64,000 nt of DNA from a virus (IMGVR_UViG_3300028374_000002:128001-192000); one strand, 5' to 3'. Shown: positions 58-64,000, counted from the stretch's first letter. Notes: generated from the sequence alone by a model not told the origin. Made by a program: numbers and translations.

Positions 58-294
58 ATGAAAAATATAAAAAAGTTTGAAGCATTTGTACAACAAAGTA
101 GTCCTAATAGACAACCAGAGGTTGATCCAGGTGTAAAACCAGGCAGAAGGATTAGTCCATCTAAACCAGGACCAATTAGAAGAGATAAGCCAGGAGTTAG
201 ACCAAGTCCTAAAGCTAGTGAAAAAGAACCAGTTAAAGCAACTGAGAAAGACGTTATAAATAAGTTCGTTGAATTAACAAACCAAAAAAAATAA
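58..294 (+). CDS. Small Pro/Lys/Arg-rich protein with N-terminal MKxIKxFExF motif (candidate internal head protein)
   Basis: 78-aa ORF MKNIKKFEAF..., downstream of TAATATATA (23-31); PxRR/PGPIRR-rich. Confidence 0.6.
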   Translation: MKNIKKFEAFVQQSSPNRQPEVDPGVKPGRRISPSKPGPIRRDKPGVRPSPKASEKEPVKATEKDVINKFVELTNQKK

Positions 295-300
295 AAAAAA

Positions 301-1791
301 ATGATTAAAAAATTTGATAAATTCCTAGAGGAAGTTAGTATTGAAGGAAACCCTGGCATACCAGGCGAAGGTGGTAAGCAAGAAGGAGATGTAGATTATC
401 TAAAAAATATGGAACGAGATGCCAGAGCTAAGTATGGTGCTGGTGCTGGTGAAAATCCTGGACCACATATTGGAAGAATAATGGGATTAGTTGGACAGTC
501 GTCTAGACTCATTATACCACATAAAGAAGCATTAGAACAATTGGCTGAAAAGGTCATAAGAAATGAATTTGGTGATATTCTAGATGGTGTTGATTTAGAT
601 ATAAAATTTGCAGAATCTGGTGATGATGTTGCAAAATTTATGAGTGAAGAAGATGAAGAAGAGGAAGATGAAGAAAAAATGCAAGAGATAAAAGACAAAG
701 ACCTTATTAATAAGATACATAAGGCTAAACTTGCCAATGTATTAATACAAGGGGAAGCCAAGAATACAAAACACATTCTTAATTTACCAGAAGTAAAAGA
801 AGAAATAGATATTATTTTTGGCAATAATTCAGATAGAATATTAAAAATTTGGAATGATATTACTAAGCTAGCAGAGAGATTAGATTGGTTAATACCAGTA
901 GATGCGAAAGCTAATATGATGGAAAACCAACCTGGTGGGATGGCTGGTGCTGTAAAGGTTGACTGGGTAAAGAAGGAAAAGAAAGAAGAAGAAGAGGAAG
1001 AAGAATTAGATATAGACAAAATTATAGGTAGTGATGAGGATGAAGTGGAAGAAGATATGGATGTTGAATACACACCTACTATAAAGGCTAGGGGTATAGA
1101 CTTCCCAATGCTATTACATGAAGCGGTTAAGGGTATATTAGAACTTATAGCATCGATTTATCAACCAGGTGAAGGAGCTAGTGAAAAGGAAATGTCTGAT
1201 GCTAGGACTGTGAAATTTAACGTGTCTACTTTTCAGGATGAAGCAGAGGATTTTAGAACTGGACCAGAGGTTGCTAGTGCTTTAAGAGATTTTATAAACG
1301 AGAGTCCTAGGGCTAGTTATAGTAGAGTTATGAGACTTTATGTTTATGGTAAAATGTTAGATCCTAATTATATGACAGAAGAGCAATTTCTTAAATTATT
1401 TAGAGGTATTCTTAACGGAAGTAGTGATGCTAGAACAAAAGTAGATCAGATTGTTAATGAAATAGTTTCTGAATTAAAAGAATATGAGTCTGGTGAAGTT
1501 ATAGGACATGATGACAAGGATGATGATTCAGGTTTAGATTATGATGCACTTGGGATGACGAAGCCCGATGAAAGTGAGCAGTCTGACTATGACAGAGAAG
1601 ATTTAGATTCTATGTCAGAAAAAGATTTATTAGCACTAATGGACGATGCTTTGGATTCTGGTAATACTAAGAGAATGGAAGATATTGGTTCTGTTTTGAA
1701 ACAATTTTATAACGAGAGTATTACTACACAGATTTACTTAAAAGAATTAAATATGATTAAGGAAAACCACCAATATAGAAATAAAAAATAA
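301..1791 (+). CDS. Hypothetical acidic protein (poly-Glu tracts), N-terminal MIKKFDKFLEE motif
   Basis: 496-aa ORF with an A-rich start context; no family recognised. Confidence 0.7.
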   Translation: MIKKFDKFLEEVSIEGNPGIPGEGGKQEGDVDYLKNMERDARAKYGAGAGENPGPHIGRIMGLVGQSSRLIIPHKEALEQLAEKVIRNEFGDILDGVDLDIKFAESGDDVAKFMSEEDEEEEDEEKMQEIKDKDLINKIHKAKLANVLIQGEAKNTKHILNLPEVKEEIDIIFGNNSDRILKIWNDITKLAERLDWLIPVDAKANMMENQPGGMAGAVKVDWVKKEKKEEEEEEELDIDKIIGSDEDEVEEDMDVEYTPTIKARGIDFPMLLHEAVKGILELIASIYQPGEGASEKEMSDARTVKFNVSTFQDEAEDFRTGPEVASALRDFINESPRASYSRVMRLYVYGKMLDPNYMTEEQFLKLFRGILNGSSDARTKVDQIVNEIVSELKEYESGEVIGHDDKDDDSGLDYDALGMTKPDESEQSDYDREDLDSMSEKDLLALMDDALDSGNTKRMEDIGSVLKQFYNESITTQIYLKELNMIKENHQYRNKK

Positions 1792-1796
1792 TAAAA

Positions 1797-3842
1797 ATGA
1801 AAGTACATAATTACAAAGGTTTTAGAAATGAAAGCAAACACGAAGTATTAGAACCTATAAACGAAAACTTAGATAGGGCTAAAAAGCTTATAAAGGAAAG
1901 AGAGACTATTAAAATAGCAGCAAAAGAACTTAACTTACTTTCTGATGATTTAAAATATAAGATGGAAGAGGGTGATATAATTACACTTAGGTTAGAAGAT
2001 TTCCCTAGAGAAAGTAGAGGAGATTTAGCTTATAAGATGAAAGGTGTTAAGATGAAGCCAGATGAACTTAAACAACTTGAAAAGAGTCCTACTTTTAAAG
2101 AACTGAGAGAGATTGTTGGGCAAAAGAACCTTGGATTCATGTACAACTTTGCATATATGTTTTATATAGAAAAAGCACCATTAGAGGATCTTAGAGATTT
2201 ATCAGATAAGTTAAAAGAATACAAGAGTTTGCTTCCTAGGTTATCAAAAATGCCAGAAATTGGTAGAAATTTTGATGCTAATTTTATCGATGATACTTAT
2301 ATAGATAATAGCACACCAGATACCGAAAGACCACTCACAAATTTTGAGACAATAACTGATGCTATGACAGAACTTGGGAAGTATAAAAGAGTTAAGATTG
2401 TACTAGATAGTTTGCCCAAAAAGATGAGAGATCAGTATGATACTGCACCAAAACTATTGAAGAATGACATGGATGAAATTGCTAGGGGATTTCTTGAAAC
2501 TGTTAGTGATGATGAAAAAGTTAGGGCTAAAGTTTGGCGGAATTTCTTTGGGGGTATGATAGAAGACACATATAAATTTACAACAGATGGTGATATTAAT
2601 CCTACATTTGGTAAAATGGTATATTCAAGTCGTATTAAAAAGTTTGAAAAAGAGCCAAATCCATTAAAAGCTTTTATAATAGATGCTAAAAAACATCTCA
2701 AAACATCAGTAGTTAATATTGATGAGCGTGAATCTAGGCTTAAAATCATAAAAAAAACAAATGATAGATTTGGACAAATGGGATGTGAATTGATTTTGGA
2801 TGATAGTGGTATAATCATTGTCATTGTGTTTTCATTCCCAGCTAATAATATGTTAAACGCACATGCTGGAGACCACTGTATAGTTAGTGCACAACACCAC
2901 TGGAATCACTATGTTGGTGAGTTTAATAAACAATATTATATCTATAACACCAACATAAGCAAAGTAGAAAATTTATCTACAATAGGTGTTAGTATTGAGC
3001 CCGATCAAGGTATAAGTTCTGCTGCTTGTCAAGATGTTCAAAATAATCCCATACGTAATAGATTTAGAGCTATTCTTAACTCATGGGAGAATGAATATGA
3101 CTTAGATTACAAGCTATTTGATATATTACAACCAATGAGTGAAGAAGAAGTAGATAAAAGAAAGAGAGCAAAAGAAGCAGATAGAGAAATAATAAAAAAG
3201 GGATTATCAATAGATGATATCAAAAGGCTTGTAACAGAAGATGGTGCTGACATTAATAAAAATTCCTCACAAGCCTTAATTAATGCAACTGAAGATGGTG
3301 ATTATGAGAAAATTAAACTATGCTTAGAGTATGGTGCATCACCTAATCTAGCATCTGGATCAAATGCAGCAATATCAAAAGCAAAAGACTTTGATACTGT
3401 TAAGTTACTTGTTAGCTATGGTTCGGATTTAACCACTAATGTACTTAAAGGAATAATAAATAATCCAGAGGCTCTACAATACTGTTTTGATGCTGGATTA
3501 GATCCTAATATGTCTAACTCAAGACCATTAAGAGAATGTATTAAAGGAACCTGGAAAAGCAAAGAAAACTTAGGCGATGCATACGTAGAATCTGCTAAGG
3601 TAATATTAGACCAACCAGAGGTAATAGAAAATGTTAAGAGAACAATAGATATTATGATTAAATACGCAGTTAATTATGGCAGAATTGGTATATTAGAATT
3701 GATGAAAAGAAAAGGCTTATTTACTAAATTAACCAACGAACAAGTAGAAACCTATGAAAAATGGCTTGAACAAGGTGGGAGAATAACACCAGAGTTAGCA
3801 GATGAAGTTCTTGAATATATATCCAAAAATATGTATGAGTAG
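1797..3842 (+). CDS. Large protein with C-terminal ankyrin repeats
   Basis: GADINKNSSQALINATEDGDYEKIKLCLEYGASPN and following units match the ankyrin consensus (GAxxN...AL..A...G...vkLLlxxGA). Confidence 0.7.
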   Translation: MKVHNYKGFRNESKHEVLEPINENLDRAKKLIKERETIKIAAKELNLLSDDLKYKMEEGDIITLRLEDFPRESRGDLAYKMKGVKMKPDELKQLEKSPTFKELREIVGQKNLGFMYNFAYMFYIEKAPLEDLRDLSDKLKEYKSLLPRLSKMPEIGRNFDANFIDDTYIDNSTPDTERPLTNFETITDAMTELGKYKRVKIVLDSLPKKMRDQYDTAPKLLKNDMDEIARGFLETVSDDEKVRAKVWRNFFGGMIEDTYKFTTDGDINPTFGKMVYSSRIKKFEKEPNPLKAFIIDAKKHLKTSVVNIDERESRLKIIKKTNDRFGQMGCELILDDSGIIIVIVFSFPANNMLNAHAGDHCIVSAQHHWNHYVGEFNKQYYIYNTNISKVENLSTIGVSIEPDQGISSAACQDVQNNPIRNRFRAILNSWENEYDLDYKLFDILQPMSEEEVDKRKRAKEADREIIKKGLSIDDIKRLVTEDGADINKNSSQALINATEDGDYEKIKLCLEYGASPNLASGSNAAISKAKDFDTVKLLVSYGSDLTTNVLKGIINNPEALQYCFDAGLDPNMSNSRPLRECIKGTWKSKENLGDAYVESAKVILDQPEVIENVKRTIDIMIKYAVNYGRIGILELMKRKGLFTKLTNEQVETYEKWLEQGGRITPELADEVLEYISKNMYE

Positions 3843-11518: not shown

Positions 11519-13222
11519 TTAGTTTAATAATCCATTCTCGTCTGTAATTCTCAAAGTCATAAATTGCTTTTGTGGGAACCAGCCTACTTCAGCTACTGCG
11601 TATCTTGAACGTAATAACATTCTAGGTGCAAAGGTAGCTTCCGAGATAACACTAATTGATTGTGCCATTAAGTAAGGTACAAATATGATACCTGGTTGGT
11701 CAGGATTGTTCTTTCTACCTAGAGCAATTCTGTTGTCGTTATACTTCATATATGGATCAACATATATTGATATATCCCCGATAGAACCTACTGGGTAAAG
11801 TTGTCCAGCTCCGTTTAGTTTAGATTTTACTGGGTTAAGAGTATAACCTGAAACATCCGATAAAGCTGCTGCTAAACCACCGTTAGTAACTAAATACTGT
11901 GCTGGTCCAACACGTCCTTCTGTTGCAATGTAGTTAGATGCATGCATTATCTTTGTGATAAGCTTTCTTTGCACAGCGTGAGTTGTCTCACCACCTACGT
12001 TAGCACCTGCATAGTTCGTGTTTAAATCGAACAAAGGCACTCCTGTACCTCCTCCTGGTGGTGTTCTTAATGGTGCAGACTCTCTGTTAAGTTCTCCCAT
12101 TTCAAATACTTTAGCAACAATTTGCTTAGATATTGTTTGAGAAAGTTCATTAACAAGAATGCTTTCCATTTTTTGAACGATATCCATACCAGTGTTGGCT
12201 TTGATATCTTCAATTTCAGTTCTTCTAAGTGCTGATGTTATCTCGATAGTACCAACGGCAATTGTTTTAGAAGAAATTTTCGGCCCAATGATACCTGCGT
12301 ATCTCTTGTCATCTTGCTCTCTATCCATTGGATAGTTTCCAGAAAAACCATTTTCACTTGTATTCCAGTTTGCAGAAAAACCTGGTAATTGGTCTTCAAG
12401 TGCAGAAATAAGTTCAACTTTTGCACCAGATACTGTTACACCAGCAACATTAACTAATTGATCAGTCATTGCAGTTGTTGAATCAAAAGTGTTTCTTGTT
12501 TGGTCAAATGCCCATGTAGTTCCAGCAGTTCCAACAGCACCATGAGATGTGTTAAATTGTCTGTAAGCTCTAAACATTGGGAATCCATCAATACGTGAAA
12601 ATCCTAAAAATTCTACTTGTCCTGTTTTATCAGATGCTTCTGTTGTAGTGATACCAGTATCTGGAGCGGTTTGTGCTGCGATATCATTGAAAAGCGTTCC
12701 GTTTTGTAAACCACCTTGTGATTCTACAATACCAGCAGTATTTAGTTGCTCCTTAAGTGCAGCTCTAACATCTGCGATATTATCAGCATTAAGTTTAAAA
12801 ACTTGTGGTCTTTCGTCAGAAGCACCTAAATGTGCATCATCATATCTAAAATCTACGTAAAGTAAATCGATTTTTGGTCCAGGAGAAGGCTTTACTGCAA
12901 CAAGGTCTAAACCTATTGTTTGTGCAGCAATCTTCATAGCTACTGGAAGTAAGTTTTGGCCTACATCTCCAGATCCCTGTGATCCACCGTTTTGTCCAAA
13001 AGCATTACCGATTGTTGAACCAGATAATGTTGATGGCTGTGCAGCTACAACACCTCCCATACCTGATACGTTAGATGCGTTTGCGTAAGCGTTTTCATTA
13101 ATTGAGTGGAATTCTGCGTACTCGCTCATCCAGTCAATTCTGTCGCCAGAAACACCCATGTTCTCTAGAACTGGTGTCCACTTCTTCTTGGCTTTTTGAT
13201 TGTCTATTCTAATGTGTGACAT
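11519..13222 (-). CDS. gp23: Major capsid protein (T4 gp23-like)
   Basis: KKWTPVLE, LLPVAMKIAAQTIGLDLVAVKP, IFVPYL, PRMLLRSRYAV; lies after the protease/scaffold gene. Confidence 0.9.
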   Translation of the reverse strand: MSHIRIDNQKAKKKWTPVLENMGVSGDRIDWMSEYAEFHSINENAYANASNVSGMGGVVAAQPSTLSGSTIGNAFGQNGGSQGSGDVGQNLLPVAMKIAAQTIGLDLVAVKPSPGPKIDLLYVDFRYDDAHLGASDERPQVFKLNADNIADVRAALKEQLNTAGIVESQGGLQNGTLFNDIAAQTAPDTGITTTEASDKTGQVEFLGFSRIDGFPMFRAYRQFNTSHGAVGTAGTTWAFDQTRNTFDSTTAMTDQLVNVAGVTVSGAKVELISALEDQLPGFSANWNTSENGFSGNYPMDREQDDKRYAGIIGPKISSKTIAVGTIEITSALRRTEIEDIKANTGMDIVQKMESILVNELSQTISKQIVAKVFEMGELNRESAPLRTPPGGGTGVPLFDLNTNYAGANVGGETTHAVQRKLITKIMHASNYIATEGRVGPAQYLVTNGGLAAALSDVSGYTLNPVKSKLNGAGQLYPVGSIGDISIYVDPYMKYNDNRIALGRKNNPDQPGIIFVPYLMAQSISVISEATFAPRMLLRSRYAVAEVGWFPQKQFMTLRITDENGLLN

Positions 13223-55132: not shown

Positions 55133-55141
55133 TAATATATA
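55133..55141 (+). promoter_or_regulatory. Late-promoter-like TAATATATA heading the LRR array
   Basis: Same 9-mer and 4-nt spacing to the start codon as at many other genes in the window. Confidence 0.65.
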
Positions 55142-55145
55142 GGTT

Positions 55146-55814
55146 ATGAAACATATAAAACCTTATAAAATATTCGAGAGTACAAGTCTTAACTTCCCAA
55201 CTACAAGAGAGGAAGTTATAGAAGTGTGTAAAAAATATAGAATAAAAAACTACACTATCAATGACGATTTAAGTATTGATGTTGATGGTGATGTTGAATT
55301 AGATAGCAGAAATTTAGAATACTTACCACTTAAATTTAATTATGTAAATGGTCATTTTGATTGTGCTTATAATAGATTAGAAACATTAGAAGGTTGTCCA
55401 CAAACAGTAGGTGGTTATTTTTTTTGTTTTGAAAATGAACTAAAGACATTAGAAGGTAGTCCACAAACAGTAGGTGGTGATTTTGGTTGTTCACTTAATG
55501 AATTAATAACATTAGAAGGTAGCCCACAAACAGTAAATGGGAATTTTCTTTGTTTTGGAAATGAATTAAAAGACTTAGAATACTTCCCAGAAGTAATTGG
55601 TAATGTATACATAAAGGAAAATCCAGTAGATTTATTAGTACATACTTTTATCGAAACTGCTGATAGTTTTATGATAGAAGACTTCATAGATTATGAGATA
55701 GTTAGAAACAGAGATACTGTTATGTTAGATAGATTACAAACATTCATAAGGGATAATGATTTAAAGATGCCTAATTTAAAAGAAATTAAAAAACACTATA
55801 AAATAATAGAATAG
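55146..55814 (+). CDS. LRR array protein 1 (222 aa)
   Basis: 21-aa repeats L..LEGxPQTVGGxFxCxxN. Confidence 0.9.
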   Translation: MKHIKPYKIFESTSLNFPTTREEVIEVCKKYRIKNYTINDDLSIDVDGDVELDSRNLEYLPLKFNYVNGHFDCAYNRLETLEGCPQTVGGYFFCFENELKTLEGSPQTVGGDFGCSLNELITLEGSPQTVNGNFLCFGNELKDLEYFPEVIGNVYIKENPVDLLVHTFIETADSFMIEDFIDYEIVRNRDTVMLDRLQTFIRDNDLKMPNLKEIKKHYKIIE

Positions 55815-55816
55815 AA

Positions 55817-56359
55817 ATGAAACATATAAAACCCTACAAGATATTTGAGAGTACAAGTCCTAACTTCCCAACTACAAGAGAGGGAGTTATACAAGTTTGT
55901 GAAAAGTATAGAATAGAAAACTATACTATTAACAATGACTTAACAATTGATGTTGATGGTGGTGTTTATTTAGGGGAGAAAGACTTAAAACACTTACCAC
56001 TTAAATTTAATTATGTGAGTGGGATTTTCGTTTGCCGTATTAATAAACTAAAATCCTTGGAAGGTTGTCCTAAAACAGTAGGTGGTAATTTTTATTGTTC
56101 TAACAATGAATTAAGAGATTTAGAACATTTCCCAGAAGTAGATGGTATTATATCTATGAGAGAAAATCCAGTATATCTCTTAGTATACACCTTTATTCAG
56201 AATGCTGATAGTTTCCTAATAGAAGATTTTAACGACTATGAAATAGTTAGAAACAGAGATACTGTTATGTTAGATAGATTACAAACTTTTATAAGAGATA
56301 ATAATCTAAGGATGCCTGAGTTAGAACTCATTAAAAACCACTATAAAATAATAGAATAG
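55817..56359 (+). CDS. LRR array protein 2 (180 aa, two fewer repeats)
   Basis: 222 minus 42 aa. Confidence 0.9.
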   Translation: MKHIKPYKIFESTSPNFPTTREGVIQVCEKYRIENYTINNDLTIDVDGGVYLGEKDLKHLPLKFNYVSGIFVCRINKLKSLEGCPKTVGGNFYCSNNELRDLEHFPEVDGIISMRENPVYLLVYTFIQNADSFLIEDFNDYEIVRNRDTVMLDRLQTFIRDNNLRMPELELIKNHYKIIE

Positions 56360-56361
56360 AA

Positions 56362-57030
56362 ATGAAACACATAAAACCTTACAAAATATTTGAAAGCAAC
56401 AGTCCTAACTTCCCAACTACAAGAGAAGGTGTTATAGAAGCTTGTGAAAAGTGTTTAATAAATATCTACACTATCAATGATGATTTAAGCATCGATGTTG
56501 GTGATGATGTTTTTTTAACTAATAGAAGCTTAGAGTATCTACCACTTAAATTTAACCATGTGAAAGGTTCTTTTATATGTAGCTTTAATGAATTAAAAAC
56601 ATTGGAGGGTAGTCCACAAACATTAGGTGGACAGTTTGATTGCTGTCATAATAAACTAAAGACATTGGAGGGTAGTCCACAAACAGTAGATGGTAACTTT
56701 AATTGTTCTGCTAATATTCTAATGACATTAGAAGGTAGTCCAAAAACAATAAATGGTGATTTTGATTGTTTTGATAATGATTTAACTGATTTAGAATATT
56801 TCCCAGAAGTAAATGGGGAAATATTTTTAGGGATTAATAAAATAAGTCATTTAGTACATAGCTTTATCAAAAATGCTGATAGCTTTATGATAGAAGATTT
56901 TAATGATTATGAGATAGTTAGAAACAGAGACACTGTTATGTTAGATAGATTACAAACATTCATAAGGGATAACGATTTAGAGATGCCTGACTTAGAACCC
57001 ATTAAAAACCACTATAAAATAATAGAATAG
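56362..57030 (+). CDS. LRR array protein 3 (222 aa)
   Basis: Same caps and repeats. Confidence 0.9.
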   Translation: MKHIKPYKIFESNSPNFPTTREGVIEACEKCLINIYTINDDLSIDVGDDVFLTNRSLEYLPLKFNHVKGSFICSFNELKTLEGSPQTLGGQFDCCHNKLKTLEGSPQTVDGNFNCSANILMTLEGSPKTINGDFDCFDNDLTDLEYFPEVNGEIFLGINKISHLVHSFIKNADSFMIEDFNDYEIVRNRDTVMLDRLQTFIRDNDLEMPDLEPIKNHYKIIE

Positions 57031-57032
57031 AA

Positions 57033-57701
57033 ATGAAACATATAAAACCTTACAAAATATTTGAAAGCAACAGTCCTAACTTCCCAACTACAAGAGAGGA
57101 AGTTATAGAAGTTTGTAAAAAATATGATATAGAGAACTATACTATTAATGATGATTTAAGTATTGATGTTGATCATAACGTTATTTTAAATTTTAAAAGG
57201 TTAGAATATTTACCACTTAAATTTAATTATGTGAGTGGTGGTTTTAGTTGTCACCACAATAAACTAAAAACATTAAAAGGTAGTCCACAAACAGTAGGTG
57301 GTTTTTTTGAATGCTCTTTTAATTATTTAGAATCACTAGAAGGTTGTCCACAAACAGTAGGTGGTTATTTTATGTGTTATGATAACGAATTAAGAACACT
57401 AGAAGGTAGTCCACAAAAAATAGATGGTGATTTTAATTGTGGTGATAATTATTTAACTGATTTAGAACATTTCCCAGAAGTAAGTGGTGGTATATACATA
57501 AATACAAACCCAGTAAATTTACTAGTATATACCTTTATCAAAAATGCTGATAGCTTTATGATAGAAGACTTTATAGACTATGAGATAATTAGGAACAGAG
57601 ATACTGTTATGTTAGATAGGCTTCAAACATTCATAGAAGGATTTGATTTAGAAATACCTGACTTAGAAAAAATTAAAGAACACTATAAAATAATAGAATA
57701 A
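57033..57701 (+). CDS. LRR array protein 4 (222 aa)
   Basis: Same caps and repeats. Confidence 0.9.
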   Translation: MKHIKPYKIFESNSPNFPTTREEVIEVCKKYDIENYTINDDLSIDVDHNVILNFKRLEYLPLKFNYVSGGFSCHHNKLKTLKGSPQTVGGFFECSFNYLESLEGCPQTVGGYFMCYDNELRTLEGSPQKIDGDFNCGDNYLTDLEHFPEVSGGIYINTNPVNLLVYTFIKNADSFMIEDFIDYEIIRNRDTVMLDRLQTFIEGFDLEIPDLEKIKEHYKIIE

Positions 57702-57703
57702 AC

Positions 57704-58459
57704 ATGAAATATATAAAACCTTACAAAATATTCGAGAATGCTAGTCCTAACTTCCCAACTACAAGGGATGAAGTTATAGAAGTGTGTGAAAAGTATGAAA
57801 TAGAAAATTATACCATAAACGATGATTTAAGTATCGGTGTTGATGGTGATGTTCATTTATATAGTAAAAATTTAGAATACTTACCACTTAGATTTAGTTA
57901 TGTGAGTGGTGATTTTAGTTGTCACCACAATAAACTAAAAACATTAAAAGGTGGTCCACAAACAGTAGATGGTTATTTTTATTGCTTTAATAATAATTTA
58001 GAATCATTAGAAGGTTGTCCACAAACAGTAGGTGGGCGTTTTAATTGTTTTGAAAATGAACTAAAGACATTAGAAGGTAGTCCACAAACAGTAAATGGTG
58101 ATTTTAATTGCTTTAATAATAAACTAGAATCATTAGAAGGTAGTCCACAAACAGTAGGTGGGCATTTTAATTGTTCTTTTAATAAATTAACCGATTTAGA
58201 ATATTTTCCAGAAGTAAATGGTTCGGTAATTATATATGGAAATATAGTAAATTTATTAGTATATACATTTGTGGAAAATGCTAATACTTTCCTCATAGAA
58301 AATGCTAATGCTTTCCTCATAGAAGATTTTGTAGACTACGAGATAGTTAGAAACGGTGATACTGTTATGTTAGATAGATTACAAACTTTTATAAGAGATA
58401 ATAATCTAAGGATGCCTGAGTTAGAACCCATTAAAACCCACTATAAAATAATAGAATAG
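57704..58459 (+). CDS. LRR array protein 5 (251 aa)
   Basis: One extra repeat plus an 8-aa duplication (ENANTFLI/ENANAFLI). Confidence 0.9.
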   Translation: MKYIKPYKIFENASPNFPTTRDEVIEVCEKYEIENYTINDDLSIGVDGDVHLYSKNLEYLPLRFSYVSGDFSCHHNKLKTLKGGPQTVDGYFYCFNNNLESLEGCPQTVGGRFNCFENELKTLEGSPQTVNGDFNCFNNKLESLEGSPQTVGGHFNCSFNKLTDLEYFPEVNGSVIIYGNIVNLLVYTFVENANTFLIENANAFLIEDFVDYEIVRNGDTVMLDRLQTFIRDNNLRMPELEPIKTHYKIIE

Positions 58460-58460
58460 T

Positions 58461-59183
58461 ATGAAACATATAAAATTATACGAAGAATATAACAGTACTA
58501 AGGAAGTAGTAGAAGAAGTAATTAAATATGAGGTAATATTTGATGTAGTTGATGTATCAAGCGACCCAGTTGCTAAGGAAGAATTTGATAATTATGAAGA
58601 TGCCTTAGCATATTATGAGAAAACATATGAATATGATGATGGTGTATATAGGACAAGAACTCATTCAAAAATGCTAGATGAAATAACATATTCTGTATCC
58701 TATGAATATGACAGTGATAATGAGGATAAAGACGATGTTGATGATGATGATAAAAATTGGGATATAATCGATACTGATAATATGGAGTCAGAAGAATATC
58801 GAATTAATGATGATTCTGAAAATGTTTTGGAACAGATTGAGGATTGGTTCAAAGAAAAATATGATTCAAATAGGACAAAATACCATGAGATAGATGTTTA
58901 TTACAATGATGATGACTATAAGACTATACAAATTAGGTTTTCTAATCACACAGAAAACATTATGAACAATGATAGATTCAGAAGTAAGGATTATTACATA
59001 TCAGTTGTTGTTTCTGATTATGATGTTACTGATAGCAGATTTGGTATGTCAAATAGTTTTGAGAGAAGGAATAACGAACATGAACTAAAATATGGTAGTA
59101 GTGATGATACTATACAAATGGAAATAGATATTGATTTTTTAATTAAAGAGTTAAAAGAGGAAATATTAGAAGACTTTGGATAG
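58461..59183 (+). CDS. Highly acidic non-LRR protein embedded in the array (MKHIKLYEEY start)
   Basis: D/E-rich; contains IQIRFSNH; no LRR units. Confidence 0.8.
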   Translation: MKHIKLYEEYNSTKEVVEEVIKYEVIFDVVDVSSDPVAKEEFDNYEDALAYYEKTYEYDDGVYRTRTHSKMLDEITYSVSYEYDSDNEDKDDVDDDDKNWDIIDTDNMESEEYRINDDSENVLEQIEDWFKEKYDSNRTKYHEIDVYYNDDDYKTIQIRFSNHTENIMNNDRFRSKDYYISVVVSDYDVTDSRFGMSNSFERRNNEHELKYGSSDDTIQMEIDIDFLIKELKEEILEDFG

Positions 59184-59220
59184 TAAATACATTACAAAAT
59201 AAGTAATTAATATATACTTT

Positions 59221-59330
59221 ATGAAGCATATAAAACCTTATAAAAATATTAGACAGGTTACAAACATTTATAAGTGATAATGGTTTAGATATGCTGGATT
59301 TGAAAGAAATTAAAAAAAATAATAGAATAA
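59221..59330 (+). pseudogene. Collapsed LRR-gene remnant (N-cap joined out of frame to C-cap)
   Basis: MKHIKPYK... followed in another frame by LDRLQTFISDNGLDMLDLKEIKK; has its own TAATATATA at 59208-59216. Confidence 0.85.
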
Positions 59331-59332
59331 AC

Positions 59333-60001
59333 ATGAAACATATAAAACCTTATAAGATATTCGAGAGCAATAGTCCTAACTTCCCAACCACAAGAGAGGA
59401 AGTTATACAAGTGTGTGAAAAGTATGAAATAGAAAACTACACTATTAATGATGATTTAAGCATTGATGTTGATGATAACGTTCATTTAGGTTTTAAAATG
59501 TTAGAATATTTACCTCTTAAATTTAATTATGTAAGTGGTGGTTTTGGTTGTTATGAAAATAAATTAATATCATTAGAAGGTAGTCCACAAATATTAGATG
59601 GTTCTTTTCTTTGTTTTGAAAATGAATTAAAATCGTTAGAAGGTAGTCCATCAGTAGTGAATGGTAATTTTATATGTTATGAAAATGAATTAGAATCATT
59701 AGAAGGTTGTCCACAAACAGTAGGTGGTGATTTTTCTTGTTCTGATAATAAATTAAAAGATTTAGAACACTTCCCAGAAGTAAATGGTATCATATCTATG
59801 AGGGGAAATCCATTAGATTTATTAGTACATACCTTTATCAAAAATGCTGATATCTTTATGATAGAAGACTTTACAGACTATGAAATAGTTAGAAACAGAG
59901 ATACTGTTATGTTAGATAGATTAGAAACTTTCATTAGAGATAATGATTTAAAAATGCCTGACTTAGAAGGTATTAAAAAACACTATAAAATAATAGAATA
60001 A
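59333..60001 (+). CDS. LRR array protein 6 (222 aa; true start 59333)
   Basis: The ORF-track extension from 59291 belongs to the remnant C-cap. Confidence 0.9.
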   Translation: MKHIKPYKIFESNSPNFPTTREEVIQVCEKYEIENYTINDDLSIDVDDNVHLGFKMLEYLPLKFNYVSGGFGCYENKLISLEGSPQILDGSFLCFENELKSLEGSPSVVNGNFICYENELESLEGCPQTVGGDFSCSDNKLKDLEHFPEVNGIISMRGNPLDLLVHTFIKNADIFMIEDFTDYEIVRNRDTVMLDRLETFIRDNDLKMPDLEGIKKHYKIIE

Positions 60002-60013
60002 AATAGAATAAAC

Positions 60014-60682
60014 ATGAAACATATAAAACCTTATAAGATATTCGAGAGCAATAGTCCTAACTTCCCAACCACAAGAGAGGAAGTTATACAAGTGTGTGAA
60101 AAGTATGAAATAGAAAACTACACTATTAATGATGATTTAAGCATTGATGTTGATGATAACGTTCATTTAGGTTTTAAAATGTTAGAATATTTACCTCTTA
60201 AATTTAATTATGTAAGTGGTAGTTTTAATTGTTTTTATAATAAATTAACATCATTGGAAGGTTGTCCACAAAAAGTAGGTGGTAGCTTTGGTTGTTTTTA
60301 TAATAATTTAGAATCATTAGAAGGTTGTCCACAAACAGTAGGTGGTGATTTTTCTTGTTCTGATAATGAATTAGTATCATTGAAAGGTGGCCCACATACA
60401 GTGGGTGGTAATTTTAATTGTGTTTATAATAAATTAACAGACTTAGAACACTTCCCAGAAGTAAATGGAATTATAAGTATAAAGAAAAACACAGTATATC
60501 TATTAGTACATACTTTCATTGAAAATGCTAATAGTTTCCTCATAGAAGATTTTATAGACTATGAAATAGTTAGAAACGGAGACACTGTTATGTTAGATAG
60601 ATTACAAACATTCATTAGAGATAATGATTTAGAGATGCCTGACTTAGAAGAAATTAAAGAACACTATAAAATAATAGAATAA
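60014..60682 (+). CDS. LRR array protein 7 (222 aa)
   Basis: 5' region identical to protein 6 through LKFNYVSG. Confidence 0.9.
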   Translation: MKHIKPYKIFESNSPNFPTTREEVIQVCEKYEIENYTINDDLSIDVDDNVHLGFKMLEYLPLKFNYVSGSFNCFYNKLTSLEGCPQKVGGSFGCFYNNLESLEGCPQTVGGDFSCSDNELVSLKGGPHTVGGNFNCVYNKLTDLEHFPEVNGIISIKKNTVYLLVHTFIENANSFLIEDFIDYEIVRNGDTVMLDRLQTFIRDNDLEMPDLEEIKEHYKIIE

Positions 60683-60684
60683 AC

Positions 60685-61482
60685 ATGAAATATATAAAAC
60701 CTTATAAGATATTTGAGAATATATCTAACTATTTCCCAACTACAAGAGAAGAAGTTGTGGAAGTATGTATAAAATTTGAAATTATAAATTATACTATCAA
60801 TGATGATTTAAGTATAGATGTTGATGGTGATGTTGATATGGCGAATAAGGGAATAAGCAGCTTACCAATTAAATTTGGAAAGGTAAGTGGTGATTTTGCT
60901 TGTGAGTCTAATTATCAATTCTTTACACTAGAGGGATGTCCTTATGAGGTTGGTGGGAGTTTTAGTTGTAATACCAATGAACTTTTTTCACTAAGGGGGT
61001 GTCCTAAGATAATAGGAATTGATTTTGATTGTGGGTATTGTCCAATAGATTCATTGGAAGGTTGCCCAGAAACAGTAGGTGGTAATTTTTATTGTGAGCA
61101 TAGTGGTATAGAATCATTAGAATATATGACAAAAAATATTGGGGGATCTGTTATTTTAAACATGAATGAAATAAAATCATTCAAAGGGTGTCCAGATAGT
61201 ATATTTGGTAATTTGTATATAAGTGATAATAATATCACAGACTTAGAATATATACCAAATGTATCAGATTATATACACTTGCAAAGGAATCCAGTACACT
61301 CTATAGTAAACTCTTTCATTATAAAAGGTGATGATATGCTAATTGAAGATTTCCAAGACTATGATATAATAATTGATAATAAATCTATAAATTTGTTTAG
61401 GTTAGAAAATTTCTTTAAAGATTTTAACCTACCAATGCCAGACTTAAAAAAAATAAAAAAACATTATAAAATAATAGAATAA
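60685..61482 (+). CDS. LRR array protein 8 (265 aa, divergent)
   Basis: Same architecture, two extra repeats, diverged caps. Confidence 0.9.
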   Translation: MKYIKPYKIFENISNYFPTTREEVVEVCIKFEIINYTINDDLSIDVDGDVDMANKGISSLPIKFGKVSGDFACESNYQFFTLEGCPYEVGGSFSCNTNELFSLRGCPKIIGIDFDCGYCPIDSLEGCPETVGGNFYCEHSGIESLEYMTKNIGGSVILNMNEIKSFKGCPDSIFGNLYISDNNITDLEYIPNVSDYIHLQRNPVHSIVNSFIIKGDDMLIEDFQDYDIIIDNKSINLFRLENFFKDFNLPMPDLKKIKKHYKIIE

Positions 61483-61484
61483 GA

Positions 61485-62309
61485 ATGAAATATATAAAAC
61501 CTTACAAGATATTTGAGAGTGTTAGTCCTAATTTCCCAACTACAAGGGATGAAGTTATAGAAGTGTGTGAAAAGTATGAAATATATAACTACATCATTAA
61601 TGATGATTTAAGCATTAATGTTGAAGGTGATGTTGATTTAAATATTGATATCGATGAGGATATAGGCCTACAAAATATAAAATTAAAATATTTACCTGTT
61701 GTATTCAACTATGTAAAAGGCTCATTTTATTGTCAAGATAATGAATTAATATCACTAGAAGGTTCACCACGTGATGTTGGAATTTTTGATTGCTCTAATA
61801 ATAAATTAAAAACACTTGAAGGTGGGCCAGTGGATGTGCGTGGTTTTTTCAGTTGTGATGATAATAATTTAAAAACATTAAATGGGTCACCTTCTAATGT
61901 TTCTAGGTGGTTTTCCTGTTCTAATAATAATTTAAAAACATTAGAGGGTTCTCCAAATGTTGTAAACGGAGAGTTTGTTTGTCATAATAATGAGTTAGAA
62001 TCATTAAAGGGTATTACTAAAAATATAACTGATAGATTATATATAAACCACAATAATATTAAATCGTTGGATTACTTTCCAACAACAACAAGTATAATAT
62101 TCACACAAGGAAATCCAATAGATGTACTAATAAGCACTTTTATCAGAAATGATAACTTCAATGATCTTTTAGAAGAATTTGAAGAATTTGAAATATTAAG
62201 AAATGGTGTTGTTGTTTATCTAGATAGATTAAAAACCTTCATAGAAGGATTTGATTTGAAAATGCCTAGCTTAGATAGAATTAAACAAGAGTATAAAATA
62301 ATAGAATAA
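61485..62309 (+). CDS. LRR array protein 9 (274 aa, divergent)
   Basis: Same architecture. Confidence 0.9.
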   Translation: MKYIKPYKIFESVSPNFPTTRDEVIEVCEKYEIYNYIINDDLSINVEGDVDLNIDIDEDIGLQNIKLKYLPVVFNYVKGSFYCQDNELISLEGSPRDVGIFDCSNNKLKTLEGGPVDVRGFFSCDDNNLKTLNGSPSNVSRWFSCSNNNLKTLEGSPNVVNGEFVCHNNELESLKGITKNITDRLYINHNNIKSLDYFPTTTSIIFTQGNPIDVLISTFIRNDNFNDLLEEFEEFEILRNGVVVYLDRLKTFIEGFDLKMPSLDRIKQEYKIIE

Positions 62310-62311
62310 AC

Positions 62312-62980
62312 ATGAAACATATAAAACCTTATAAAATATTTGAAAGCAACAGCCCTAACTTCCCAACTACAAGGGATGAAGTTATAGAAGTGTGTGAAAA
62401 GTATGAAATATATAACTACATCATTAATGATGATTTAAGCATAGATGTTGCTGATGATGTTTTTTTAACTAGAAGCTTAGAGTATCTACCACTTAAATTT
62501 AACCATGTGGAAGGTTCTTTTTTATGTGGCTTTAATGAATTAAAAACATTGGAGGGTAGTCCACAAACATTAGGTGGGTTTTTTGATTGCTCTTATAATA
62601 AACTAAAGACATTAGAAGGTTGTCCACAAACAATAGTACGTGGTTCTTTTAAATGTTCTAATAATAATATAATGACATTAGAAGGTAGTCCACAAACAAT
62701 AAATGGTGATTTTATTTGTAGTGATAATAAGTTGGTAGATTTAGAACATTTCCCAGAAGTAAATGGTATAATAAATATAGAGAAAAACACAGTAAATTTA
62801 TTAGTATATACTTTTATTAATAAAGTGGATACTTTTATGATAGAAGACTTCATAGATTATGAAATAGTTAGAAACAGAGATACTGTTATGTTAGATAGAC
62901 TAGAGACCTTTATTAGTGATAATGATTTAATGATGCCAGACTTAAAAGAAATAAAAAAACATTATAAAATAATAGAATAA
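62312..62980 (+). CDS. LRR array protein 10 (222 aa)
   Basis: Middle region resembles protein 3. Confidence 0.9.
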   Translation: MKHIKPYKIFESNSPNFPTTRDEVIEVCEKYEIYNYIINDDLSIDVADDVFLTRSLEYLPLKFNHVEGSFLCGFNELKTLEGSPQTLGGFFDCSYNKLKTLEGCPQTIVRGSFKCSNNNIMTLEGSPQTINGDFICSDNKLVDLEHFPEVNGIINIEKNTVNLLVYTFINKVDTFMIEDFIDYEIVRNRDTVMLDRLETFISDNDLMMPDLKEIKKHYKIIE

Positions 62981-62982
62981 AC

Positions 62983-63714
62983 ATGAAACATATAAAACCT
63001 TACGAGATATTTGAGAGTGCTAGTCCTAATTTCCCAACTACAAGAGAGGAAGTTATAGAAGTGTGTGAAAGGTATAGAATAAAAAACTATACTATTAATG
63101 ATGATTTAAGTATCGATGTTGATGGTGATGTTTATTTAGTGGATAAAGGCTTAGAATACTTACCACTTAAATTTAATTATGTAAGTGGTAATTTTGTTTG
63201 TTCTGATAATAAATTAAAGACATTAGAAGGTAGTCCACAAACAGTAGGTGGTTATTTTTTTTGTTTTGAAAATGAACTAAAGACATTAGAAGGTAGTCCA
63301 CAAACAGTAGGTGGTACTTTTAATTGTTCTTACAATGAATTAATAACATTAGAAGGTAGCCCACAAACAGTAAATGGGAATTTTCTTTGTTTTGGAAATG
63401 AATTAATAACATTAGAAGGTAGCCCACAAACAGTAAATGGGAATTTTCTTTGTTTTGGAAATGAATTAAAAGACTTAGAATACTTCCCAGAAGTAAGTGG
63501 TAATGTATACATAAAGGGAAACACAGTATATCTATTAGTGTATACTTTTATTAGAACTGCTAGTAGTTTTATGATAGAAGATTTTATAGACTATGAAATA
63601 GTTAGGAACAGAGATACTGTTATGTTAGATAGATTACAAACATTCATAAGGGATAATGATTTAAAGATGCCTAATTTAAAAGAAATTAAAAAACACTATA
63701 AAATAATAGAATAG
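62983..63714 (+). CDS. LRR array protein 11 (243 aa)
   Basis: Exact 63-bp duplication, 63334-63396 and 63397-63459. Confidence 0.9.
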   Translation: MKHIKPYEIFESASPNFPTTREEVIEVCERYRIKNYTINDDLSIDVDGDVYLVDKGLEYLPLKFNYVSGNFVCSDNKLKTLEGSPQTVGGYFFCFENELKTLEGSPQTVGGTFNCSYNELITLEGSPQTVNGNFLCFGNELITLEGSPQTVNGNFLCFGNELKDLEYFPEVSGNVYIKGNTVYLLVYTFIRTASSFMIEDFIDYEIVRNRDTVMLDRLQTFIRDNDLKMPNLKEIKKHYKIIE

Positions 63715-63716
63715 AA

Positions 63717-64000
63717 ATGAAACATATAAAACATTACAAGATATTTGAGAGTACAAGTCCTAACTTCCCAACTACAAGAGAGGAAGTTATAGAAGTGTGT
63801 GAAAGGTATAGAATAAAAAACTATACTATTAATGATGATTTAAGTATCGATGTTGATGGTGATGTTCATTTATATAGTAAAAATTTAGAATACTTACCAC
63901 TTAGATTTAGTTATGTGAGTGGTGCATTTCTATGTTTTGATAATGAATTAAAAACATTAGAAGGTTGTCCACAAACAGTAGGTAGGTCTTTTTCCTGTTC
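63717..64000 (+). CDS. LRR array protein 12 (partial, runs off the window)
   Basis: MKHIKHYKIFESTSPNFPTTREEV... open to the end of the window. Confidence 0.85.
   Translation, partial: MKHIKHYKIFESTSPNFPTTREEVIEVCERYRIKNYTINDDLSIDVDGDVHLYSKNLEYLPLRFSYVSGAFLCFDNELKTLEGCPQTVGRSFSC

What the first reader, a model, noticed from the sequence alone, without database searches (positions are those of the whole stretch)
58..64000. Shared N-terminal MKxIKx(F/Y)xxFE peptide on many unrelated proteins: a candidate capsid-targeting signal
Seen: MKNIKKFEAF (58), MIKKFDKFLEE (301), MKVHNYKGFRNE (1797), MGNIKLYEDF (19917), MKYINTFES (36178), MKRIQNFES (36807), MKHLKKYKLFLE (49202), MKHIKLYEEY (58461) and MK(H/Y)IKPYKIFE on the LRR copies. 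The bodies of these proteins are otherwise non-homologous. Established: T4 internal proteins carry a 10-aa capsid-targeting sequence (MKTYQEFIAE type) removed by gp21 after Glu. Inference: these proteins, including the LRR library, ankyrin protein, cysteine hydrolase and acidic protein, are packaged in the head and ejected with the DNA, so they could act before phage gene expression.
Basis: partly seen in the sequence, partly recalled or inferred. Interest (0 to 1): 0.78.

Follow-up and report, generated by a model that had tools for sequence, protein, structure and literature searches.

The report
Shared capsid-address leader, huge lake phage
About a fifth of the genes in this fragment of an uncultured huge lake phage start with the same roughly 10-residue peptide; it most likely works like phage T4's clip-off capsid-targeting tag and loads a very varied set of proteins into the phage head, but packaging has not been shown.

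Summary
In the 201-kb record that holds the window (an IMG/VR phage fragment, about 28% complete), 47 ORFs start with M-K-x-(I/L)-K-x-(F/Y) followed by E, N-E or K-I-F-E. Without their first 16 residues these fall into 23 unrelated sequence groups. The strict motif occurs at 14 non-LRR N-termini against 0.36 expected.

Selection acts on the peptide, because codons vary synonymously. AlphaFold2 leaves the leader unstructured in front of two different folds. In 120 orthologues a hypervariable linker follows it.

The phage has a T4-type head module. Its protease is fused to a scaffold with 11 tandem YSEYIAENLDKNI repeats. These imply a cut rule (I/L/V)-x-E|(N/S), which also fits the capsid-protein propeptide and the long leader form KIFE|S/N. 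Leader genes sit behind the late-type promoter used by structural genes. None is a replication enzyme.

Best reading (0.55): a T4-CTS-like prohead-targeting propeptide.

Weaknesses: there is no proteomic evidence. The short leader form lacks I/L at P3. A matrix built from these leaders does not pick out the T4 CTS significantly.

The scan found analogous leaders, with different sequences, in other T4-like and huge phages.

The parts
58..294 (+). Leader gene, 78 aa: MKNIKKFE|AF followed by a basic, Pro-rich, low-complexity body (pI 10.3). It is the first gene of a three-gene leader operon.
   Evidence: late-type promoter TTAATATATA at 22-31
301..1791 (+). Leader gene, 496 aa: MIKKFDKFLEE|V with an acidic body and no Pfam or PHROG family.
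1797..3842 (+). 681-aa protein with weak ankyrin repeats and a weak or variant leader, MKVHNYKGFRNE|S.
   Evidence: Pfam Ank_2 E=2.5e-4, below cut-off; PWM 7.2 bits; similar variant leaders in LR756501
19153..19917 (-). Leader gene, 254 aa, GTG start: MGNIKLYE|DF on an LRR-like body. It lies between the portal and protease genes, where T4 has its prohead-core genes 67 and 68.
   Evidence: promoter motif at 19922-19931; T4 gene order
35564..36178 (-). Leader gene, 204 aa: MKYINTFE|S, then the linker NRTDD, then a cysteine-hydrolase/nicotinamidase-like fold.
   Evidence: More than 1,100 homologues. The leader is conserved at 3.3 bits/column, against 1.9 for the linker. AF2 pLDDT is 86, with residues 1-10 below 50 and the fold starting at residue 12. 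Weak Foldseek hits to nicotinamidase and cysteine hydrolase, E about 0.01. Promoter motif at 36184-36193.
36247..36807 (-). Leader gene, 186 aa: MKRIQNFE|S on a very acidic Q/E/D-rich body (pI 4.1).
   Evidence: promoter motif at 36830-36839
46941..49205 (+). 754-aa protein with a marginal leader, MKYLKRKNIYLSE|A. It heads the operon that contains the next leader gene, just upstream of the sheath gene.
   Evidence: PWM 9.8 bits; promoter motif at 46916-46925; no PHROG or Pfam family
49202..49726 (+). Leader gene, 174 aa: MKHLKKYKLFLE|D, with a charged, probably coiled-coil body.
55146..58459 (+). Five tandem LRR paralogues (55146, 55817, 56362, 57033, 57704), each starting MK(H/Y)IKPYKIFE|(S/N).
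   Evidence: Alignment A2: M1 K2 I4 K5 P6 Y7 I9 F10 E11 are invariant. AF2 model has pLDDT 82, with residues 1-13 below 50. One promoter motif at 55132-55141 heads the array.
58461..59183 (+). Leader gene, 240 aa: MKHIKLYE|EY on an acidic non-LRR body, inserted inside the LRR array.
59221..59332 (+). Remnant of an LRR gene: promoter motif, leader MKHIKPYK, a stop after 18 codons, then the conserved 3' end of an LRR gene.
   Evidence: sequence read
59333..64000 (+). Seven more LRR paralogues with the same leader (59333, 60014, 60685, 61485, 62312, 62983, and 63717, which is cut by the window end).
13303..15441 (-). Prohead protease fused to a scaffold (712 aa). The protease domain covers about residues 1-240 (GEFDHP, VSSRAAG) and its N-terminus reads MKPVLIVE|N.
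   Evidence: PHROG_207 head maturation protease E=2e-27; Pfam Peptidase_S77 only E=0.0025; alignment with relatives and with the PTm1 'prohead core scaffolding protein and protease'
14074..14535 (-). Eleven tandem 14-residue scaffold repeats, YSEY(I/V/L)AENLDKNIx (residues 303-456). Each holds an (I/V/L)-A-E|N site, and KLFE|S follows the array.
   Evidence: [ILV]xE[NS] density is 2.8 per 100 aa, the highest in the proteome (background 0.34)
11519..13222 (-). gp23-type major capsid protein. The propeptide carries VLE|N (residues 18-21) and INE|N (41-44), at nt 13091-13171.
   Evidence: Pfam Gp23 E=5e-28; KKWTPVLENMGV aligns with T4 NKWKPLLEGEGL; the sites are conserved in relatives
21919..23613 (-). 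T4-type portal protein, preceded by the late-type promoter motif at 23633-23642.
   Evidence: Pfam Portal_T4 E=3e-53
27093..27458 (-). gp55-like late sigma factor. It is the likely reader of the TAATATATA-type promoters.
   Evidence: PHROG_234 late sigma transcription factor E=1e-7

Best explanation
The leader is a capsid-targeting propeptide of the T4 kind.

Proposed mechanism. Late in infection, proteins that begin M-K-x-(I/L)-K-x-(F/Y)... are drawn through this short unstructured peptide into the scaffolding core of the prohead. That core is built by the protease-scaffold fusion protein. After the shell closes, the gp21-type protease chops the scaffold at its repeated (I/V/L)-A-E|N sites. 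It also trims the capsid-protein propeptide and removes the leader after its conserved Glu (E8, E9 or E11, mostly followed by Ser or Asn). The cargo is left free inside the head and is probably released into the host with the DNA.

The cargo comprises a diversified LRR family, charged low-complexity proteins, an ankyrin protein and a cysteine-hydrolase-like enzyme. In relatives it also includes an M15 peptidase, a SET-domain protein and an NFACT-R protein.

Shown here:
- the tag exists and is under peptide-level selection;
- it lies outside the folds;
- it is confined to non-replication, non-shell and non-tail proteins behind late-type promoters;
- the head module is T4-type.

Inferred: binding to the core, cleavage and ejection.
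For: 1. Enrichment and modularity. There are 14 strict matches at N-termini against 0.36 expected. The 47 leader proteins form 23 unrelated clusters.

2. Selection is on the peptide. I/L use ATA, ATT, TTA, CTA and CTT; F/Y, K and E codons vary as they do genome-wide. In 120 orthologues at about 60% identity, K5 is kept in 113, F/Y7 in 118, E8 in 117 and N/S9 in 112. A 4-6 residue hypervariable linker with indels follows.

3. Not part of the fold. AF2 gives pLDDT below 50 for residues 1-10 of the hydrolase-like protein (model pLDDT 86) and for residues 1-13 of an LRR protein (model pLDDT 82).

4. T4-type head machinery. Gp23 E=5e-28, Portal_T4 E=3e-53, protease PHROG_207 E=2e-27.

5. An internal cut rule.
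- The scaffold has 11 tandem repeats with (I/V/L)AE|N, followed by KLFE|S. Relatives have KLNE|S or KLNE|N at that place.
- The protease N-terminus reads LIVE|N, and T4 gp21 has LIE-9 (PMC9026906).
- The capsid-protein propeptide has VLE|N and INE|N.
- The leader Glu is followed by S/N in 22 of 23 LRR copies and 11 of 24 other leader proteins, against a background of 13.8% (p=1.5e-4).
- The long form K-I-F-E|S/N has the same I-F-E-(S/N) ending as SIFES in T4 gp22 and KIFEN in the T4 gp23 propeptide.

6. Same positional logic as the T4 CTS: residues 4 and 7 hydrophobic or aromatic, Glu for processing.

7. Timing.
- The motif [AT]ATATATA / TAATATATA lies upstream of 9 of 10 structural genes against 3 of 12 replication genes (p=0.004).
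- 15 of 24 leader genes have it directly and 5 more lie in operons behind it.
- 0 of 26 have the host-type TAnnTTTG promoter.
- A gp55-like late sigma factor is encoded.

8. Cargo. No leader sits on any polymerase, helicase, topoisomerase, RNR, UvsX, clamp loader, sheath, portal or capsid protein. Of 86 leader proteins in relatives, none is a core replication enzyme, although single HNH and weak Toprim-like hits occur.

9. The tag is a lineage trait. It gives 53, 62 and 31 exact-pattern hits in three 630-640-kb relatives, against 0-1 control hits.
Against: - There are no proteomic, structural or genetic data for this uncultured phage.
- The short leader forms (T/K/N-F-E, F-N-E) lack the I/L/V at P3 that the scaffold, the capsid-protein sites and T4 share. 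Cleavage there is therefore less certain than targeting.
- A position matrix trained on these leaders scores T4 IPII and IPIII at only 3.1 bits, rank 6-7 of 267 T4 ORFs and below the T4 interior 99.9th percentile. Likeness to the T4 CTS is one of pattern, not demonstrable homology.
- T4 itself has a CTS-like N-terminus (MKTFKEFIKE) on gene 61.1, a hypothetical protein next to the primase gene that is not known to be packaged.
- The number of tagged genes is far beyond any known case: about 20% of ORFs here, and likely over 100 per complete genome.
- Most cargo is acidic (median pI 4.8), unlike basic IPII and IPIII.
- The late-type promoter also precedes homing endonucleases and two topoisomerase genes.
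Confidence: 0.55

Rival explanations
1. The leader is a virion docking tag that is not removed. In this reading it is a short strand or helix that plugs interchangeable binding heads, above all the diversified LRR proteins, onto a common socket on the outside of the capsid, neck or tail, giving decoration or adhesin proteins.
For: - The largest tagged family is a hypervariable LRR repertoire, which looks like a set of binders (scan notes e1-5408137 and e1-5408098).
- The genes are late.
- An unstructured conserved N-terminal peptide fits strand or helix insertion into a partner equally well.
- The scan read a 13-residue tag in a giant E. coli phage this way (e1-158929).
Against: - The same tag heads a nicotinamidase-like enzyme, an ankyrin protein, a basic Pro-rich 78-aa protein and several very acidic low-complexity proteins. 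In relatives it heads SET, NFACT-R and HNH proteins. These are cytoplasm-type activities rather than surface fibres.
- The near-invariant Glu-(Ser/Asn) junction followed by a hypervariable linker mirrors the scaffold and propeptide cut sites.
- Ten residues is short for a stable structural anchor.
Confidence: 0.15
2. The leader is a sorting or regulatory tag unrelated to the virion. In this reading it is a short linear motif read by some other phage or host factor, such as a chaperone, a modifying enzyme, a protease that times degradation, or a membrane or compartment receptor. It marks a class of late accessory proteins.
For: - Conserved, disordered and modular features are generic to any short linear motif.
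- In another phage group a shared N-terminal tag turned out to go with a radical-SAM enzyme rather than the capsid (e1-127136).
- T4 gene 61.1 shows that CTS-like N-termini exist on proteins not known to be packaged.
Against: - No radical-SAM gene is present in the 201-kb record, although that record is only about 28% of the genome.
- This reading does not explain why the tag's Glu-(S/N) junction matches the repeated scaffold and propeptide sites.
- It does not explain why the positional pattern matches the T4 CTS in a phage with a T4-type head module.
- It does not explain why one tagged gene sits between the portal and protease genes.
Confidence: 0.2
3. There is no protein-level function. 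In this reading the shared start is a by-product of AT-rich composition, of translation initiation on short-leader or leaderless late mRNAs, or of a mobile promoter-plus-5'-end cassette spread by recombination.
For: - The genome is 28.8% GC, and ATG-AAA starts are common.
- The late-type promoter often ends only 4-5 nt before the ATG, so the first codons lie in the initially transcribed region.
- Leader genes are hyperplastic and clustered.
Against: - Enrichment is 40-fold over the interior rate of the same AT-rich proteins, and the reversed DNA pattern gives 0-1 hits.
- Synonymous codons vary freely while I/L, F/Y and E are kept.
- Many genes with the promoter at -14 have quite different N-termini, such as MAELF, MLNSK, MASLS and MNYVA.
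- Internal genes of the LRR arrays keep the leader without a promoter.
- E8 and N/S9 are held in 117 and 112 of 120 orthologues.
Confidence: 0.07

Closest known systems
Capsid targeting sequence (CTS) of phage T4 internal proteins IPII and IPIII (MKTYQEFIAE; also IPI and Alt), removed by the prohead protease gp21 (Mullaney and Black 1996, as reviewed in PMC9026906 and PMC3012670)
   Same: - It sits at the extreme N-terminus, is about 10 residues long, starts M-K, and has hydrophobic or aromatic residues at positions 4 and 7 and a Glu at the end.
- It is shared by otherwise unrelated, fast-evolving accessory proteins.
- The phage has a gp20/gp21/gp22/gp23-type head module.
- The long form ends I-F-E|S/N, which fits L/I-x-E.
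   Different: - The sequence is different, and the T4 CTS scores only 3.1 bits on this leader's matrix.
- There are three length forms, and the short forms lack L/I at P3.
- There are about 47 tagged genes in 201 kb, against 3-4 in T4.
- The cargo is mostly acidic and includes a large LRR family.
- The protease is fused to a scaffold with 11 tandem cut-site repeats.
- Nothing has been tested experimentally.
Polymorphic internal-protein loci of T-even phages with CTS-like leaders (Repoila et al. 1994, PMC395341, cited as ref. 69 in PMC9026906)
   Same: A constant leader sits on a variable, hyperplastic set of small proteins. These are thought to be injected counter-defence factors, for example IPI* against GmrSD.
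   Different: The lineage is different (uncultured huge phages of lakes, probably with Bacteroidota hosts). The scale is far larger and the leader consensus differs.
N-terminal capsid-targeting signal of phage P1 DarB (PMC9024508)
   Same: An N-terminal signal directs a protein, and a heterologous reporter, into a myophage head for delivery to the host. The first 30 residues suffice, and the key region is residues 6-10.
   Different: P1 has one known client, no separate scaffold, and a different sequence. Here many clients share one tag.
Long propeptides of ejection and inner-body proteins in phiKZ, 201phi2-1 and SPN3US, cut after Glu by a gp21 homologue (PMC5694885, PMC9026906)
   Same: [quoted passage not shown] Paralogues can share identical N-termini.
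   Different: Those propeptides are mostly over 100 residues long, and their motif is S/A/G-x-E. Here the tag is about 10 residues and the head module is T4-like rather than phiKZ-like.

Membership tests
T4-type capsid targeting sequence (CTS) propeptide | A short (about 10-20 aa) peptide at the extreme N-terminus, shared by otherwise unrelated proteins | tested here: met
   14 strict N-terminal matches against 0.36 expected. The 47 proteins form 23 unrelated clusters.
T4-type capsid targeting sequence (CTS) propeptide | The phage assembles its head with a T4-type portal, gp21-family protease, scaffolding core and gp23-type capsid protein | tested here: met
   Gp23 E=5e-28 and Portal_T4 E=3e-53. 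PHROG_207 protease E=2e-27, although Pfam Peptidase_S77 reaches only E=0.0025, below its cut-off. The scaffold is fused to the protease, as annotated in PTm1.
T4-type capsid targeting sequence (CTS) propeptide | Targeting determinants at residues 4 and 7 (PMC9026906) | tested here: inconclusive
   I/L at position 4 and F/Y at position 7 are among the best-conserved positions. Their role in targeting cannot be tested with these tools.
T4-type capsid targeting sequence (CTS) propeptide | The tag ends in a prohead-protease site (L/I-x-E in T4) and is removed | tested here: inconclusive
   The long form K-I-F-E|S/N fits. The short forms (x-F-E, F-N-E) lack I/L at P3. The Glu-(S/N) junction matches the inferred scaffold and propeptide sites. 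Removal itself is not testable here.
T4-type capsid targeting sequence (CTS) propeptide | Recognisable sequence similarity to the T4 CTS | tested here: not met
   A matrix built from this genome's leaders scores T4 IPII and IPIII at 3.1 bits, rank 6-7 of 267. The likeness is positional only.
T4-type capsid targeting sequence (CTS) propeptide | Tagged proteins are physically inside the head and delivered to the host | not testable with these tools
   This needs virion proteomics or reporter encapsidation.
Sec, Tat or lipoprotein signal peptide | A hydrophobic h-region of 7 or more residues (with a lipobox or twin-Arg motif) after a basic n-region | tested here: not met
   Read directly from the leaders: each has only two or three separated hydrophobic residues, followed by a polar or acidic linker.
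RiPP-like leader served by a radical-SAM/SPASM enzyme (as found by the scan in RB43-type phages) | A radical-SAM enzyme gene encoded alongside the tagged genes | tested here: not met
   No PF04055 match in the 201-kb record. That record is only about 28% of the genome, so absence from the whole phage is not shown.

The most novel reading that the evidence does not exclude
The largest known phages pre-load their capsids with a combinatorial arsenal. Each complete genome would have dozens to over a hundred different tagged proteins, including a diversifying library of LRR binders. Each is docked through a 10-residue tag onto the multivalent 14-residue repeats of the scaffold, then released by the head protease and injected with the DNA to disarm host defences before any phage gene is expressed.
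Probability: 0.25. Interest if true: 0.85.

Novelty: new variant of a known kind. Interest (0 to 1): 0.6.

Why it matters
If the tag is a capsid address, it gives one testable function to about a fifth of the otherwise unannotatable genes of a clade that includes 630-640-kb phages.

It would extend the T4 'internal protein' idea from three or four proteins to a large, rapidly diversifying injected repertoire (LRR binders, enzymes, possible DNA mimics).

It would explain why the protease-scaffold protein carries an array of identical cut sites.

It would also supply a very short portable tag for loading foreign proteins into phage heads in Bacteroidota-type systems.

It further offers a simple sequence rule for predicting virion-delivered effectors in metagenomic phage genomes.

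Tried and rejected
- Complex prediction of the scaffold region (residues 240-470 of the protease-scaffold protein) with the first 40 residues of the 78-aa leader protein gave no answer (score 0.00). This is not evidence either way.
- A PWM from this genome's leaders applied to all T4 ORF N-termini ranked IPII and IPIII 6-7 of 267 at 3.1 bits, so I dropped the claim of sequence homology to the T4 CTS.
- The upstream motif 'P2' (CACTATAAAATAATAGAATAA), first taken for a second promoter, is only the conserved 3' end of the preceding LRR gene.
- Megablast of the sheath gene against the phage collection found nothing. Relatives were reached by protein search instead.
- Tenacibaculum phage PTm1 is the nearest cultured, annotated relative (capsid protein 28% identical). 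It has essentially no such leader, with 1 pattern hit, so its virion proteome cannot serve as a test. Its paper is not in the library.
- Pfam and PHROG scans of leader proteins gave almost nothing.
- Foldseek of the 204-aa protein gave only weak nicotinamidase and cysteine-hydrolase hits, E about 0.01.
- The radical-SAM partner idea found no PF04055 match in the record.
- In the sequencing-run search, no RNA holder was listed.
- Literature searches found no paper describing this leader in huge phages.
Full report
**What the DNA is**

The window is bases 128001-192000 of a single 201,264-bp IMG/VR virus record. The record is 28.8% GC and linear, and CheckV estimates it at about 28% complete. 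It encodes a T4-type core:
- a gp23-type capsid protein (Pfam Gp23 E=5e-28);
- a T4-type portal (E=3e-53);
- a head-maturation protease (PHROG_207 E=2e-27);
- a tail sheath, a terminase with an intein, UvsX and a gp55-like late sigma factor.

The nearest records are uncultured huge phages: LR745206.1 (634 kb) and LR756502.1 (642 kb) at 74% capsid-protein identity, then LR756504.1 and LR756501.1 at 52%. The nearest cultured phage is Tenacibaculum phage PTm1 at 28%.

Host-type promoters of the Bacteroidota form TAnnTTTG lie upstream of some genes. Near-identical DNA is present in many lake and salt-lake metagenomes.

**The observation**

Across the whole record, the strict motif [IL][KRQN]x[FY][EDN][EDSA] begins within the first nine residues of 14 of 215 non-LRR ORFs. 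The interior rate of the same proteins predicts 0.36. A further 24 LRR paralogues start MK(H/Y)IKPYKIFE(S/N).

With a looser definition, 47 ORFs of 70 residues or more carry the leader. After removal of their first 16 residues they form 23 BLAST clusters, one LRR cluster of 25 and 22 singletons. 'Unrelated bodies' therefore holds.

The ankyrin protein at 1797 is a weak or variant case. The ORF from 59291 really starts at 59333, and a decayed LRR gene that still carries the leader lies at 59221-59332.

**The leader is a peptide-level, modular tag**

- Codons at the conserved positions vary synonymously, in about the genome-wide proportions. I/L are encoded by ATA, ATT, TTA, CTA and CTT.
- The 204-aa hydrolase-like protein has more than 1,100 homologues in metagenomes. 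In the best 120, at about 60% identity, K5 is kept in 113, F/Y7 in 118, E8 in 117 and N/S9 in 112. Four to six hypervariable polar residues with indels follow, and then the invariant first strand of the fold. Information content is 3.3 bits per column for the leader, 1.9 for the linker and 3.5 for the body.
- AlphaFold2 with that alignment gives pLDDT 86 overall but below 50 for residues 1-10, with the fold starting at residue 12.
- An LRR paralogue gives pLDDT 82 overall and below 50 for residues 1-13, even though nine of its first eleven residues are invariant among ten paralogues.

A conserved but unstructured peptide that precedes two different folds and is followed by a variable linker is the signature of a short linear motif read in trans.

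**The tag is a trait of the lineage**

The exact DNA pattern for M-K-x-(I/L..)-K-x-(F/Y) was counted in each record, with the reversed pattern as a control:

| Record | Pattern hits | Control hits |
|---|---|---|
| LR745206.1 | 53 | 0 |
| LR756502.1 | 62 | 1 |
| LR756504.1 | 31 | 0 |
| This record | 33 | 0 |
| LR756501.1 | 1 | 1 |
| PTm1 | 1 | 0 |

In LR756501.1 the N-termini near the capsid gene show a looser variant leader.

In the relatives the leader genes are small, clustered and co-oriented. They show three forms...(F/Y)-E-x-(F/Y)...(F/Y)-N-E-S and ...Y-K-(I/L/V)-(F/Y)-E-(S/N).

Of 86 such proteins, all but a few have no Pfam domain. The exceptions are single cases of Peptidase_M15_4, SET, NFACT-R and HNH, plus weak Toprim-like and CBM hits.

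**The link to the head**

The 712-aa protease protein is a protease-scaffold fusion, as annotated for its PTm1 homologue. After the protease domain and a coiled-coil stretch come 11 tandem 14-residue repeats, YSEY(I/V/L)AENLDKNIx, and then KLFES.

T4 gp21 cuts after L/I-x-E, and its scaffold gp22 is degraded at many such sites (PMC9026906). In the T4 record, gp22 contains LIAEA, SIFES, KIAEK and ELFES, the gp23 propeptide contains KIFEN, and gp68 contains SINEN.

By analogy, each repeat in this phage is a cut site (I/V/L)-A-E|N. The pattern [ILV]xE[NS] is denser in this protein than in any other protein of the record, at 2.8 per 100 residues against 0.34. Outside the repeats it is still 1.65 per 100.

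Other sites fit the same rule:
- The capsid-protein N-terminus aligns with the T4 gp23 propeptide. It carries VLE|N and INE|N, both conserved in relatives.
- The protease itself starts MKPVLIVE|N, which parallels LIE-9 of gp21.
- The site after the repeats is KLFE|S here and KLNE|S or KLNE|N in relatives, so P3, P1 and P1' are conserved while P2 is free.

The leaders share the junction. Their first Glu after the aromatic residue is followed by Ser or Asn in 22 of 23 LRR copies and 11 of 24 other proteins, against a background of 13.8% (p=1.5e-4). The long form K-I-F-E|S/N obeys the full rule.

One leader gene (19153-19917) lies between the portal and protease genes, where T4 keeps its prohead-core genes 67 and 68.

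**Positional likeness to the T4 CTS**

T4 ipII and ipIII both begin MKTYQEFIAE. According to the review, residues 4 and 7 carry targeting and residues 8 and 10 carry processing. Here the best-kept positions are M1, K2, I/L4, K5, F/Y7 and the Glu.

The likeness is positional only. A matrix trained on this genome's leaders gives T4 IPII and IPIII 3.1 bits, rank 6-7 of 267 T4 ORFs, whereas 21 proteins of this genome score 13.5-23.6 bits.

T4 also has MKTFKEFIKE on gene 61.1, a hypothetical protein beside the primase gene. A CTS-like start is therefore not proof of packaging.

**Timing and exclusion**

A motif TTAATATATA (core [AT]ATATATA) lies either 13-14 nt or about 30 nt before many start codons. 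It precedes 9 of 10 recognised structural genes but only 3 of 12 replication genes (p=0.004). With the gp55-like sigma factor, it is most simply the late promoter.

Among leader genes:
- 15 of 24 non-LRR genes have the motif directly upstream;
- five more lie in operons behind it;
- each LRR array is headed by one;
- none of 26 has the host-type promoter, against 19 of 189 other genes.

No leader is found on the DNA polymerase, helicases, topoisomerase subunits, RNR, DnaB-like helicase, SbcD, UvsX, clamp loader, sheath, portal, capsid protein or terminase.

**What the cargo looks like**

The set includes:
- the LRR family, all acidic (pI 4.3-5.0);
- a basic Pro-rich 78-aa protein;
- a Lys-rich 120-aa protein;
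- several strongly acidic or mixed-charge low-complexity proteins;
- coiled-coil proteins;
- an ankyrin protein;
- the hydrolase-like enzyme.

The median pI is 4.8, against 6.3 for other proteins.

As an inference only, solenoids, coiled coils and disordered chains are shapes that could pass through a tail tube, and acidic proteins could act as DNA mimics.

**Verdict**

The tag is real, is selected as a peptide and is modular. It is tied by several independent computed features to the late, T4-type head-assembly programme. I put 0.55 on a T4-CTS-like prohead-targeting propeptide. Confidence is lower for cleavage of the short forms, and lower again for injection and early action.

The rivals are:
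- an unremoved external docking tag (0.15);
- a non-virion sorting or regulatory motif (0.20);
- no protein-level function (0.07).

The complex prediction gave no answer.

The scan has found analogous leaders with other sequences in other T4-like and huge phages. This case belongs to a recurring, still unpublished pattern, and literature searches found no description of it.

Noticed in passing
window 14074-14535 (-): The head protease is fused to a scaffold holding 11 near-perfect tandem 14-residue repeats, YSEY(I/V/L)AENLDKNIx. The repeats are conserved in four huge-phage relatives but not in PTm1. A scaffold built as an array of identical protease sites appears undescribed.
   Followed up: partly
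window 22-31, 19922-19931, 23633-23642, 36184-36193, 46916-46925, 55132-55141 and many more: The late-type promoter motif TTAATATATA often ends only 4-5 nt before the start codon. This suggests leaderless or nearly leaderless late mRNAs. A separate set of genes has the Bacteroidota host-type TAnnTTTG promoter.
   Followed up: partly
window 55146-64000 (+), LRR genes: Every LRR paralogue ends ...(H/E)YKIIE-stop. Its C-terminus (I-I-E) therefore looks like the product side of a prohead-protease cut and echoes the N-terminal YKIFE. The function is unknown.
   Followed up: no
window 59221-59332 (+): A decayed LRR gene: promoter motif, leader MKHIKPYK, a stop after 18 codons, then the conserved 3' end of an LRR gene. 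This is evidence of recombination or deletion inside the array. The ORF called from 59291 is an artefact of it.
   Followed up: partly
L027 / T4 NC_000866.4 18966-19130 (-): T4 gene 61.1, a 54-aa hypothetical protein next to the primase gene, begins MKTFKEFIKE. This is a close copy of the ipII/ipIII capsid-targeting sequence.
   Followed up: no
G000:C1:76479-77072 (-): A 197-aa leader protein has a Lys-rich C-terminal domain (…KKYKVYVKNP…TAGYWSCR…) that looks like a widespread viral domain of unknown function. No Pfam hit was found.
   Followed up: no
L061-L070 (LR756502.1, LR745206.1): Many leader proteins of the relatives share a second short element 15-25 residues after the leader, an acidic amphipathic stretch such as ...ILLDLTDDG, ...IFHELRDEG or ...FLLDLSDMG. 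A sub-family may therefore have a larger common N-terminal module.
   Followed up: no
window 38644-41991 (-), 43076-43591 (-); 8638-10533 (-), 53400-55100 (+): The large terminase is split, carries intein-like inserts, and is encoded in at least two ORFs. Several large HNH or homing-endonuclease genes interrupt the structural module.
   Followed up: no
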